Shown: piece after piece, positions 20,792 to 23,200 of the stretch
Layout: each line of letters opens with the position of its first letter
Numbering within the stretch: the stretch's first letter is position 1
Assembly: GCA_976226885.1 (NCBI GenBank)
Contig: OZ320313.1
Location: forward strand, 171,926,001-171,990,000
Reading direction: 5' to 3'
DNA length: 64,000 bases
From: Iphione sp. A-MEVVRFRX5
Lineage: Eukaryota
Made by a program: the position numbers and the translations under genes
The notes under the pieces: model-generated
Seen by the model: the letters and a program-made list of their open reading frames with translations, nothing else
Database searches by the model: none
Told to the model about the DNA's origin: nothing

Positions 20792-21721
20792 TTACACAGC
20801 TGTTTCATTGCTCTCACGCTGTTCACGAGTTTCTATCATATTATATATATCATTATAAAATCCATAATAATCAACATTTTCAATTCTACGTTGACGGAGC
20901 TTTTTGATGGCATATACAGTTATTGAGCTAATGGTCATAATTCCAATAATACCACTTAAAACTCCCACAATAATGATAAGCAAAGAATGGGTGTTTGCAG
21001 ATATGGATCCGTGAGCTGGTAACGAAGTATGAGGTCCTTGAATAGTACTCAAACTGGTCTGTAATGTTGTAACCTTCAGTTCAGGAGTCGCTTTGTTGGA
21101 TTTAGTGTTTGATTCAAATGTAGTGTTCGGATAACTTGTGTCCATTGGTGATGAGGCAGTCGACTCAACAGGAGATGCAATAGGTATAGAATGAGTAGAA
21201 GATGTAAAATCTGTACTTTCAAGTCCTGGGGAAATTATAGTGGTATGTGTTTCCATAGAAGAGGTCGACAATGATAAAAACGGTGAATAATTTTTGGTAG
21301 TCTTAGTCAGTTCAGTTGATGTGCGTATATCCGACACGGGAACAGTTGACTTCACTGGTGTAGTCAGTTGGGTGGGTAATGATGTCTGATCGGGATTCCT
21401 ACTACTTTGGAAGCAATTCCATAAAATAGTATAGTTGGTGTCAGTAGGAATGGAGTAGCAATTGAAATTAATCCACTGTTCACGAATATCCAAAATTTGG
21501 AGTGCCTCAAATTTCATTAAAATATCCCTTCTCAGCTGAAGCAATTTACAATAACGCCAGTCCAGATGAATATACTGCTTGTTTGTTGGAATGAATAATT
21601 GTTGAGGATCCTTTCCACGGCATGTTATAGTATCCCATGAACATTTACATACTTGACAGATGTTATCTTGTCCACTTCCATAGTGTAGAAGTAAGGATAA
21701 TAGTAAAATGAATCCCAACAT
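20792..21721 (-). CDS. Type-I membrane protein: signal peptide, LRRNT plus ~2 LRRs, Ser/Thr mucin-like stalk, TM helix, Tyr-rich tail ending ETAV
   Basis: MLGFILLLSLLL signal; CQVCKC..ITC; HLDWRYCKL; LQILDIREQ; TM LLIIIVGVLSGIIGIMTISSITVYAI followed by KK. Confidence 0.88.
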   Translation of the reverse strand: MLGFILLLSLLLHYGSGQDNICQVCKCSWDTITCRGKDPQQLFIPTNKQYIHLDWRYCKLLQLRRDILMKFEALQILDIREQWINFNCYSIPTDTNYTILWNCFQSSRNPDQTSLPTQLTTPVKSTVPVSDIRTSTELTKTTKNYSPFLSLSTSSMETHTTIISPGLESTDFTSSTHSIPIASPVESTASSPMDTSYPNTTFESNTKSNKATPELKVTTLQTSLSTIQGPHTSLPAHGSISANTHSLLIIIVGVLSGIIGIMTISSITVYAIKKLRQRRIENVDYYGFYNDIYNMIETREQRESNETAV

Positions 21722-22525
21722 TTCGTGTTCTTTTCCTCTTTTGCTACCTCCTTTAAGAACTACTACTCTGACTGGTGGTTGCGGGTTGCGGGAATGACCT
21801 TAGAGCGTTGAGTTCCCTTATCGGTTCTGGGTTAATGGGGGCAATAAATCAAGATGTTCTCTTTCATTATCTAGTATTTGATCTGTGTGAACATGACAGA
21901 TATATGTTGACTAAATACTTCTATTAGAATCATAAGAAAAGAAATTACTTTATAGTTTTGTAAGCTAATTTCTGAAATAAAGCATAAATGGATAGATTAC
22001 CATTCCTTTTTTATGACCAAAATATTTACTCTAACATGTCATTTACTTTTGCTCTAAGCTAAATGAATTAGAAAAACGAAAATCGGTTATTTGGTGGTTT
22101 TTCTCTATATTTAAGGTATAATATTATAACAAAAATTAGTTATTAAAGGTAAACATCATTCCATGCTATATAGAACGAAATAATTAAATTTAGCGCAAGT
22201 GGTTATCCTACTGTACAATGCTGCCACCTTTCATTAATTGAAAGTACTAGTAAAATTGTAGTTCACATTTTATCCGCTACGAGGCAAACCATCGATTTTT
22301 AATGCTGGTAGGTTGAGGTACCAGTTTGGTGGTTTCTATACGGAAAAGAAACTCGTCAGAATTCTAAAACTTTATTTGGCTGTTTTTTTTTTATATATCA
22401 CTTAATAGTAAGAACTTTTAAAATGACAGAAATAAAATTTCATTCATATATAAAGTTAACCGATGGTATTTCAAAAAAGTTCATGTTTTTTTTATACACC
22501 AGGACCAAACCAGAGCACGGTCAGT

Positions 22526-23200
22526 ATGGTTTCGTCAAACTTTGCCGTGTTTTTGTTATGTGGAGGTTTAATCAGTCCTGTTGTGTCTACCTTCCTATGT
22601 GGGGTTTGTCAATGCCAAGAAAATCGGATTCGATGCAGACATATTCCTATAATGACTTTCTTGCGATCTGAATCCCGGATGCATAACCAATACCATGGAC
22701 TAACAGAACTTGACTTTCGTCATACAAGACTCAGCAACATAAACTTTACGTACGTGTACAAGATTTTTCCATCAGCAAGATGGATTGATGTTAGATATAC
22801 CCGACTACCTTGTGCGCGAGATTGGAGGAAGGAGGTCAAAATTATGATATTAACGGACTGTGCACCCCCCACAAAGGCTGAAAAGAAATCTGTGTTGTCC
22901 AAAGTCGGTTCACCCATTCTTCCACTCTCAGATATGAATATTCCATCTAGGAATAGCTCCGAGACTCATCAAGAAGAAAAAGTATCCCTCGGCATGAATG
23001 GTGAAAAATGGATATGGATCCTATTATATATTGGTTTAGCTTTGATCCTGGTCATCGTTGGAGTTATCATATATACTGCTCGAAAAAGGATTGCTCGCAG
23101 AATATGGTTGGATGCGGAACTTATTGAACTCAACAATCAGATAACTGAAATGGTTGATCAAGTGGAGGAAAGAGAAGAGGTAGCACCAATAGAAAAGTAA
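22526..23200 (+). CDS. Type-I membrane protein: signal peptide, LRRNT plus ~2 LRRs, short stalk, TM helix, acidic tail
   Basis: Hydrophobic N-terminus from ATG 22526; CGVCQC..IRC; LTELDFRHTRL; WIDVRYTRLPC; TM WIWILLYIGLALILVIVGVIIYTA followed by RKR. Confidence 0.88.
   Translation: MVSSNFAVFLLCGGLISPVVSTFLCGVCQCQENRIRCRHIPIMTFLRSESRMHNQYHGLTELDFRHTRLSNINFTYVYKIFPSARWIDVRYTRLPCARDWRKEVKIMILTDCAPPTKAEKKSVLSKVGSPILPLSDMNIPSRNSSETHQEEKVSLGMNGEKWIWILLYIGLALILVIVGVIIYTARKRIARRIWLDAELIELNNQITEMVDQVEEREEVAPIEK

What the first reader, a model, noticed from the sequence alone, without database searches (positions are those of the whole stretch)
20792..23200. Divergent pair of minimal LRR type-I membrane proteins in a non-enveloped virus
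Seen: two head-to-head genes ~800 bp apart share one compact ectodomain (CQVCKC..ITC vs CGVCQC..IRC; HLDWRYCKL vs ELDFRHTRL; LDIREQ..NC vs IDVRYTRLPC; ILWNC vs ILTDC), then a stalk and a single TM helix. One has a ~130-aa Ser/Thr mucin stalk, the other a short one. Established: LRRNT-LRR ectodomains are typical of animal cell-surface and immune receptors, and Polintons are thought to be non-enveloped. Inference: these act at the host cell surface (receptor decoy, superinfection exclusion, immune evasion or adhesion), perhaps as a co-regulated pair or heterodimer.
Basis: partly seen in the sequence, partly recalled or inferred. Interest (0 to 1): 0.75.

Follow-up and report, generated by a model that had tools for sequence, protein, structure and literature searches.

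The report
Polinton LRR membrane pair, chromatin-type tail
Virus-like Polinton elements in this animal genome carry, across three deep lineages, a back-to-back pair of genes for small membrane proteins with a predicted leucine-rich-repeat head, one with a conserved sorting-type tail and the other with a predicted spliced tail that often bears a motif resembling viral nucleosome tethers, so the pair likely relays a contact at the cell surface to chromatin.

Summary
Observation confirmed and extended. Genes A (20792-21721, -) and B (from 22526, +) lie head to head inside a 22-kb Polinton with intact ends and a target-site duplication. Both ectodomains are homologous (hhalign 97%), fold confidently (pLDDT 88) and match LRR proteins, though no Pfam LRR cut-off is met. 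The pair is a core module, not a stray host fragment: both genes lie near 88 of 95 capsid-gene matches in this lineage, in 19 of 20 sampled copies of a second lineage and 5 of 5 of a third. A's head and tail are as conserved as the viral protease; its tail has FxNxxY and PDZ-type motifs. New: B is not a single ORF. A phase-2 intron, conserved in all three lineages, is predicted to join it to a long basic, disordered tail that in most families of two lineages bears YNLRxR-type motifs like the foamy-virus Gag nucleosome tether (weak in this window's family). Best reading: a two-subunit surface complex whose B tail reaches chromatin; main rival: an adenovirus-E3-like surface modulator. Expression, binding and localisation are untested.

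The parts
5578..27672 (.). Host element: Polinton/Maverick, AGTAGT...ACTACT ends, 55-nt terminal inverted repeat, 6-bp target-site duplication (5572-5577 and 27673-27678)
   Evidence: integrase rve+chromo, A32-type ATPase, BIR; pPolB motifs in pieces
20792..21721 (-). Gene A, 309 aa, single exon: leader, mini-LRR head, Ser/Thr stalk, TM, 37-aa tail
21410..21664 (-). A ectodomain (about residues 20-104): 4-Cys N-cap, two LRR-type strands plus a last strand, 2-Cys C-cap
20843..20860 (-). FxNxxY-type motif in A tail (residues 288-293), inside an almost invariant Tyr-rich block
20795..20806 (-). C-terminal class I PDZ-type motif of A
21722..22525 (.). 804-bp AT-rich spacer between the divergent starts; presumed shared promoter region (inferred)
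22526..23196 (+). Gene B exon 1: leader, mini-LRR head, short stalk, TM, juxtamembrane helix; ends at a phase-2 donor that contains the ORF's stop
24242..24306 (+). Gene B predicted exon 2 (phase 2 in, phase 1 out), acidic then Tyr/Arg-rich; the only stretch downstream of B conserved with the nearest family
24737..24834 (+). Gene B predicted exon 3 (phase 1), short and basic in this family; 73-565 codons and mostly YxLR-bearing in the other families
25234..25650 (-). Adenain-type maturation protease (named from recalled motifs and position; no Pfam hit); nearest core gene to the pair in most families
25691..27022 (-). Probable major capsid protein (named from size, position and conservation; no Pfam or PDB sequence hit)

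Best explanation
Genes A and B are a conserved paralogous pair in this genome's Polintons whose products likely form one receptor-like complex at the surface of the host cell: A likely supplies reach (mucin stalk) and endocytic sorting (FxNxxY and PDZ-type tail), and B's predicted spliced basic tail would be released from the membrane to bind nucleosomes and so tie a cell contact to the state of viral or host chromatin. Shown: gene pair, conservation, motifs, splice-site pattern. Predicted: LRR fold, topology, exon joins. Inferred and untested: expression, A-B binding, surface site, cleavage of B, nucleosome binding, and the outcome (latency control or superinfection exclusion).
For: Co-inheritance: both genes near 88 of 95 capsid matches, 19 of 20 and 5 of 5 sampled copies of two further lineages; family pairs group alike in A and B subtrees. 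A head 66% and tail 62% mean identity against protease 67%, stalk 21%. NxxY in 20 of 34 and PDZ-type end in 12 of 34 TM-bearing outside homologs, against 5.0 and 0.8 in shuffles. B intron: donor at the ORF stop in 14 of 15 lineage-2 loci, phase-2 acceptor into a 410-1100-codon frame in 12 of 14, phase-2 donor and acceptor in 4 of 4 lineage-3 loci, phase-1 exon-3 acceptor in 11 of 11 lineage-1 families examined. YNLR 12 times sense, 0 antisense, in 8 of 12 lineage-1 regions, 0 in 72,000 host-flank codons; GYxLR in 7 of 13 and RRSxR in 9 of 13 lineage-2 regions, 0 antisense. The foamy-virus Gag tether is GGYNLRPR..., needing the Tyr and Arg (PMC12125541 passages).
Against: No expression data; splicing is inferred from DNA only, and 34% of long ORFs in the fetched loci also end in G before the stop (inflated by these genes). 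This window's family lacks YNLR and has only a Tyr/Arg-rich exon 2 and a 32-codon exon 3; lineage 3 shows no such motif in its large exon. The motif is short and basic, so it may be only a nuclear import or nucleic-acid-binding signal. No cleavage site was shown. Loci within a lineage are related, so counts are not independent. The pair is separated and in tandem in 14 of 104 places. B's head is less conserved (45%) and loses its C-cap cysteines in lineages 2 and 3.
Confidence: 0.35

Rival explanations
1. Adenovirus-E3-like surface modulator: A and B form a cis complex that binds a host receptor through the LRR heads and removes or blocks it using A's sorting tail (immune evasion or superinfection exclusion); B's tail is a cytosolic scaffold and never acts on chromatin.
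For: Precedent RIDalpha/beta with Tyr and dileucine sorting motifs (PMC8156722 passages) and ASFV I329L (PMC3066390 passages); A's conserved tail; the elements also carry IAP genes; several B tails have YxN motifs and Pro-rich tracts.
Against: Does not explain strand-specific YNLR/GYxLR/RRSxR motifs at the ends of otherwise unalignable tails in two lineages. A's head is under strong constraint (dN/dS about 0.14 on only 3 unsaturated pairs), not the fast change expected of an arms race.
Confidence: 0.3
2. Nuclear-envelope tether: B sits uncut in the inner nuclear membrane, its tail holding chromatin or viral nucleoprotein, its luminal head pairing with A, to aid nuclear egress, wrapping or integration.
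For: Type I topology puts B's tail in the nucleoplasm if it reaches the inner membrane (established knowledge); basic clusters and tether-type motifs; B lacks A's mucin stalk and PDZ end.
Against: A's mucin stalk and NxxY/PDZ tail point to Golgi passage and the surface; lineage-2 tails of up to about 1000 residues are large for inner-membrane entry (recalled).
Confidence: 0.15
3. Attachment proteins on an enveloped or vesicle-cloaked particle, B's basic tail gripping the genome or capsid like a matrix protein.
For: Pair lies next to the protease/capsid block in all three lineages; no PLA2X or gasdermin-like membrane-lytic gene was recognised in the window element; nematode Mavericks carry an envelope fusogen.
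Against: No fusogen found; the one F-type env seen belongs to an inserted retroelement present elsewhere at 99% identity. A mini-LRR head has no fusion fold.
Confidence: 0.12
4. Passenger host fragment or separate nested element without a role for the Polinton.
For: LRR heads are typical of animal proteins; elements are full of nested insertions.
Against: Kept intact across lineages whose capsid proteins are 35-50% identical; no cellular copy found: of 11 apparently lone A matches fetched, 9 sit beside other Polinton genes and 2 are broken remnants.
Confidence: 0.02

Closest known systems
Adenovirus E3 RIDalpha/RIDbeta complex
   Same: Two membrane proteins of a non-enveloped dsDNA virus of the Polinton-related group acting as a complex, with Tyr-based sorting motifs (PMC8156722 passages)
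   Different: No LRR head or mucin stalk; no homology shown; no chromatin-type tail
ASFV I329L (viral TLR-like protein)
   Same: Viral type I glycoprotein with LRR ectodomain (PMC3066390 passages); weak rows in the viral fold search (E 1.3-2.2)
   Different: Single gene, larger ectodomain, TIR-box-like tail; enveloped virus; no significant match
Platelet GPIb-IX subunits (GPIbbeta, GPIX; GPIbalpha mucin stalk)
   Same: Minimal capped LRR heads on single-pass proteins in a heteromeric complex, one subunit with a mucin stalk (PMC8976409 passages); Z 6.5 rmsd 3.2 over 86 and Z 6.1 rmsd 3.5 over 85 to 3rfe
   Different: Host platelet receptor; A and B have a 2-Cys or absent C-cap; 13-14% identity, an analogy only
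Mosquito LRIM1, VLRs, TLR and Slit LRR domains
   Same: Best fold matches: LRIM1 Z 9.1 rmsd 2.1 over 83 (A), Z 8.5 rmsd 2.5 over 86 (B); A profile hits VLR/TLR4 hybrid E 5e-8, TLR3 E 1e-6
   Different: Many more repeats; no donor family can be named
Foamy virus Gag chromatin-binding sequence (acidic-patch tether)
   Same: YNLRxR-type motif with the key Tyr and Arg, in a disordered basic C-terminus (PMC12125541, PMC9040877 passages)
   Different: Gag is a soluble capsid protein; here the motif is predicted to sit on a membrane protein; binding untested
Nematode Maverick fusogen MFUS-1
   Same: Signal peptide plus single TM protein encoded by a Polinton (10.1101/2022.07.12.499685 passages)
   Different: Class III fusogen of 866 aa; unrelated fold
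Notch/Delta-type regulated intramembrane proteolysis (recalled)
   Same: Logic only: one partner with endocytic and PDZ tail, one with a nuclear-type tail
   Different: No homology; no cleavage shown

Membership tests
Extracellular LRR proteins (LRRNT-LRR-LRRCT) | 4-Cys N-terminal cap | tested here: met
   Four invariant Cys in 17 of 17 A rows and 17 of 17 B rows
Extracellular LRR proteins (LRRNT-LRR-LRRCT) | Parallel-strand LRR solenoid fold | tested here: met
   AF2 pLDDT 88.4 and 88.7; top VIA rows nearly all LRR proteins, best Z 9.1 and 8.5; Foldseek gave no E<=0.001
Extracellular LRR proteins (LRRNT-LRR-LRRCT) | LxxLxLxxN repeat reaching a Pfam LRR cut-off | tested here: not met
   0 of 17 A and 0 of 17 B members hit a Pfam LRR family; the Asn is replaced by Cys, Gln or Thr
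Extracellular LRR proteins (LRRNT-LRR-LRRCT) | 4-Cys C-terminal cap | tested here: not met
   Two Cys in A and lineage-1 B; none in lineage-2 and -3 B
Type I membrane glycoprotein | Cleaved leader, one TM, basic stop-transfer | tested here: inconclusive
   Hydropathy and sequons fit; no signal-peptide or topology predictor available
Polinton/Maverick | TIRs, 6-bp TSD, pPolB, retroviral-type integrase, packaging ATPase | tested here: met
Polinton/Maverick | Double jelly-roll capsid protein and adenain protease | tested here: inconclusive
   No Pfam or PDB sequence hit; named from position, size, conservation and recalled motifs
Adenovirus E3 RID-type down-regulators | Heteromeric complex that removes host receptors through Tyr/dileucine motifs | not testable with these tools
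   Tyr motifs present; complex and activity need experiments
Viral TLR mimics (I329L) | TIR-box-like tail | tested here: not met
   No TIR hit for either ORF; tails are short Tyr/PDZ-type or low-complexity
Nucleosome acidic-patch tethers (foamy Gag CBS type) | Tyr-x-Leu-Arg anchor motif in a disordered basic region | tested here: inconclusive
   Met in 8 of 12 lineage-1 and 7 of 13 lineage-2 regions, not in this window's family or lineage 3
Nucleosome acidic-patch tethers (foamy Gag CBS type) | Arg-dependent nucleosome binding | not testable with these tools
   Needs a binding assay

The most novel reading that the evidence does not exclude
Animal Polintons encode their own contact-signalling system: A is the ligand or co-receptor, B a receptor whose tail is cut loose and docks on nucleosomes, letting cells that carry the element sense each other and set latency, reactivation or superinfection exclusion - a Notch-like, cell-contact counterpart of phage arbitrium in a eukaryotic virus-transposon.
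Probability: 0.15. Interest if true: 0.95.

Novelty: new variant of a known kind. Interest (0 to 1): 0.74.

Why it matters
Polintons are thought to be viruses, but how they behave in animal tissue is unknown. A membrane-protein pair kept as strictly as the virion protease across deep lineages is evidence of a life at cell membranes beyond transposition, and it hands over two small, expressible proteins and a short motif for direct tests. A single-pass LRR protein ending in a viral-type nucleosome tether has no counterpart that my searches found; if real it links the cell surface or nuclear envelope to chromatin. It also shows that ORF-only annotation truncates these elements' genes.

Tried and rejected
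Word-based homolog searches found nothing: A, a B head, mixed alignment at 661-2000 aa; these are weak blanks, since the full HMM scan found 97 proteins at E<=0.001. Scans of viral contigs and metagenome contigs gave no relative. Pfam gave no LRR hit. Foldseek gave no E<=0.001 in PDB or the viral library. ESM Atlas first hits were LRR clusters at 0.89-0.90, leads only. The B profile had no PDB sequence hit under E 0.2. No RNA holder was listed, so splicing and expression could not be checked. dN/dS is mostly saturated (0-34 usable pairs of 78) and stalk alignments are unreliable; no claim of positive selection is made. The joint tree has 102 columns, long branches and no outgroup, so no order of events is drawn. 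Rejected: an F-type env as part of the Polinton (retroelement insertion); a domesticated or cellular copy of A; an obligatory head-to-head layout. Earlier scan notes: nothing by words, sequence or place, one loosely related note. Not found in print by searches and by a term search of the one held supplement of PMC8502044 (0 hits); figure-based supplements, bioRxiv supplements, Repbase and subscription journals were not seen and may describe these ORFs.

Full report
Setting. The two genes lie in a 22.1-kb element, 5578-27672, with 55-nt terminal inverted repeats starting AGTAGT and the same 6 bp on both flanks. It encodes an integrase with chromodomain, an A32-type ATPase and a BIR protein, a pPolB in several pieces with splice signals between them, and ORFs I name protease and major capsid protein from position, size and recalled motifs only (no hit). 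It is a Polinton in a 1.18-Gb genome. Four other copies match A at 99-100%, so this family moved recently.

Observation. Family alignments of 17 heads each keep the four N-cap cysteines invariant and match each other at 97% probability. AlphaFold models reach pLDDT 88.4 and 88.7. Foldseek gives no E<=0.001 but its leading rows are almost all LRR proteins; the wide VIA search ranks LRIM1 first (Z 9.1, rmsd 2.1, 83 aligned; Z 8.5, rmsd 2.5, 86 aligned), with GPIb-beta at Z 6.5 and 6.1; the tool warns that a best Z of 7-8 is common, so the uniform LRR identity of the rows carries the weight. The A profile hits VLR/TLR sequences down to E 5e-8, summed over repeats; the B profile has nothing under E 0.2; no member reaches a Pfam LRR family. 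So: a minimal, divergent capped LRR head.

A core module. Genome searches gave 158 A matches (150 listed), 108 B and 95 capsid matches (lower bounds). Merging split matches left 127 A and 104 B places. Within 25 kb, 88 of 95 capsid places have both genes, 4 have one, 3 neither; one of those 3 is a distant family later shown to have both. Of 104 B places, 82 are head to head with A within 2.5 kb, 5 head to head further apart, 14 in tandem and 3 without A. A second lineage (capsid about 35% identical; 93 matches) has the head-to-head pair in 19 of 20 sampled copies; the exception holds a retroelement env, and of its three sisters two have the pair and one has protease directly beside pPolB. A third lineage has it in 5 of 5, two with a doubled B head. 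Of 24 A places with no B or capsid match nearby, 13 were distant hits (6 fetched, all in Polintons with B) and 11 others were fetched: 9 lie beside Polinton genes, 2 are broken remnants. No cellular copy turned up, but an intron-split host gene could be missed. Outside this genome, an HMM scan returned 97 proteins; I read the 42 short single-domain ones, which repeat the leader-head-stalk-TM plan; the 20 looked up are unnamed Logan or ENA records, and their context is unknown. An A-like and a more distant, short-motif-free homolog (P0019, P0056) share a contig length of 2,990,890, a hint of a pair elsewhere.

Protein A. Over 13 lineage-1 families, mean identity is 66% in the head, 62% in the tail, 21% in the stalk, against 67% for the protease in 10 families. 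The tail holds a nearly invariant Tyr block containing FxNxxY and ends in a class I PDZ-type motif in 12 of 13 rows. Of 44 outside proteins, 34 have a TM; 20 of these have NxxY and 12 a PDZ-type end, against 5.0 and 0.8 in shuffled tails. By established knowledge such motifs bind PTB/FERM sorting adaptors and PDZ scaffolds, and a mucin stalk implies Golgi passage: A likely cycles between surface and endosomes. Lineage-2 A tails differ and appear spliced.

Protein B is spliced. Its ORF stop sits in a donor site: at -4 in 7 of 14 lineage-1 loci, with in-phase donors a little upstream in several others, in 14 of 15 lineage-2 loci and as a phase-2 donor in 4 of 4 lineage-3 loci. A phase-2 acceptor opens a 410-1100-codon Ser/Pro-rich frame in 12 of 14 lineage-2 loci, most with the same first residues, and a 400-460-codon frame in 4 of 4 lineage-3 loci. 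In lineage 1 a short exon 2 follows; in the window (24242-24306) it is the only downstream stretch conserved with the nearest family (79% over 72 nt), and exon 3 has a phase-1 acceptor with a pyrimidine tract in 11 of 11 families examined. Caveats: 158 of 461 long ORFs in the fetched loci also end in G before the stop, loci are related, and no RNA was available.

The tail motif. These tails do not align, yet YNLR occurs 12 times on the sense strand and never antisense in 12 lineage-1 regions (8 families), and 0 times in 72,000 host-flank codons; in lineage 2, GYxLR ends the large exon in 7 of 13 and RRSxR in 9 of 13, never antisense, the latter at a further donor whose next exon often can begin with Leu, recalling the HMGN nucleosome-binding motif (from memory). 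The foamy-virus Gag tether reads GGYNLRPR and needs its Tyr and Arg to bind the nucleosome acidic patch (PMC12125541 passages; PMC9040877 passages). Against: this window's family has only a Tyr/Arg-rich exon 2 and a 32-codon exon 3, the same in all five copies, and lineage 3 shows no motif in its large exon.

Mechanism. If A and B work together, as joint inheritance suggests, B is where A is, at the surface, and a chromatin-type tail can only act after release from the membrane. I give that 0.35. An adenovirus-RID-like surface modulator (PMC8156722 passages; I329L, PMC3066390 passages) gets 0.30, an uncut inner-nuclear-membrane tether 0.15, particle or vesicle attachment proteins 0.12 (fusogen precedent: 10.1101/2022.07.12.499685 and 10.1101/2023.08.22.554363 passages), a passenger 0.02. 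The GPIb-IX complex (PMC8976409 passages) is the nearest architectural analogy.

Novelty. The adintovirus survey lists PLA2X, gasdermin-like, cupiennin-like, Oncoid, Bcl2 and IAP genes but no LRR or TM protein (PMC8502044, section 3.2 and term searches). Searches (listings only) showed no description of this pair. Viral membrane immunomodulators are a known kind, so I file it as a new variant; the membrane-to-nucleosome reading would be new in kind. Interest 0.74.

Noticed in passing
window 6600-12490 (+): The pPolB gene appears split by several spliceosomal introns (catalytic motifs fall on separate frames with donors and acceptors), while other lineages have 1457-1569-aa continuous ORFs (L074, L099).
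   Followed up: partly
window 16271-20439 (+): Three or four related unknown ORFs (308, 200, 230 aa) conserved across lineage-1 families and more weakly in the others; no Pfam hit.
   Followed up: no
window 13205-13615 (+); L126, L128: BIR/IAP gene inside the Polinton; two copies in one lineage-3 element.
   Followed up: no
L125:5191-6105, L127:5285-6151: B with a tandemly doubled LRR head in lineage 3.
   Followed up: partly
L094:822-3521, L110, L111: 899-aa Baculo_F-type env of a retroelement, 99% identical at three places, inserted in or beside Polintons.
   Followed up: yes
G000 whole genome: Very large, diverse and largely intact Polinton load: at least about 190 capsid-gene places in two lineages plus a third lineage.
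   Followed up: partly
L074:4761-9470; window 11509-12490: NADAR domain at the C-terminus of pPolB (E 4e-11 in L074).
   Followed up: no
L063:2637-3734: A rearranged copy in which A overlaps the remains of the capsid gene on the opposite strand.
   Followed up: no
window 24822-24938 (+): A second short basic frame just after predicted exon 3, partly repeating it, the same in five copies; possibly an alternative end of B.
   Followed up: partly
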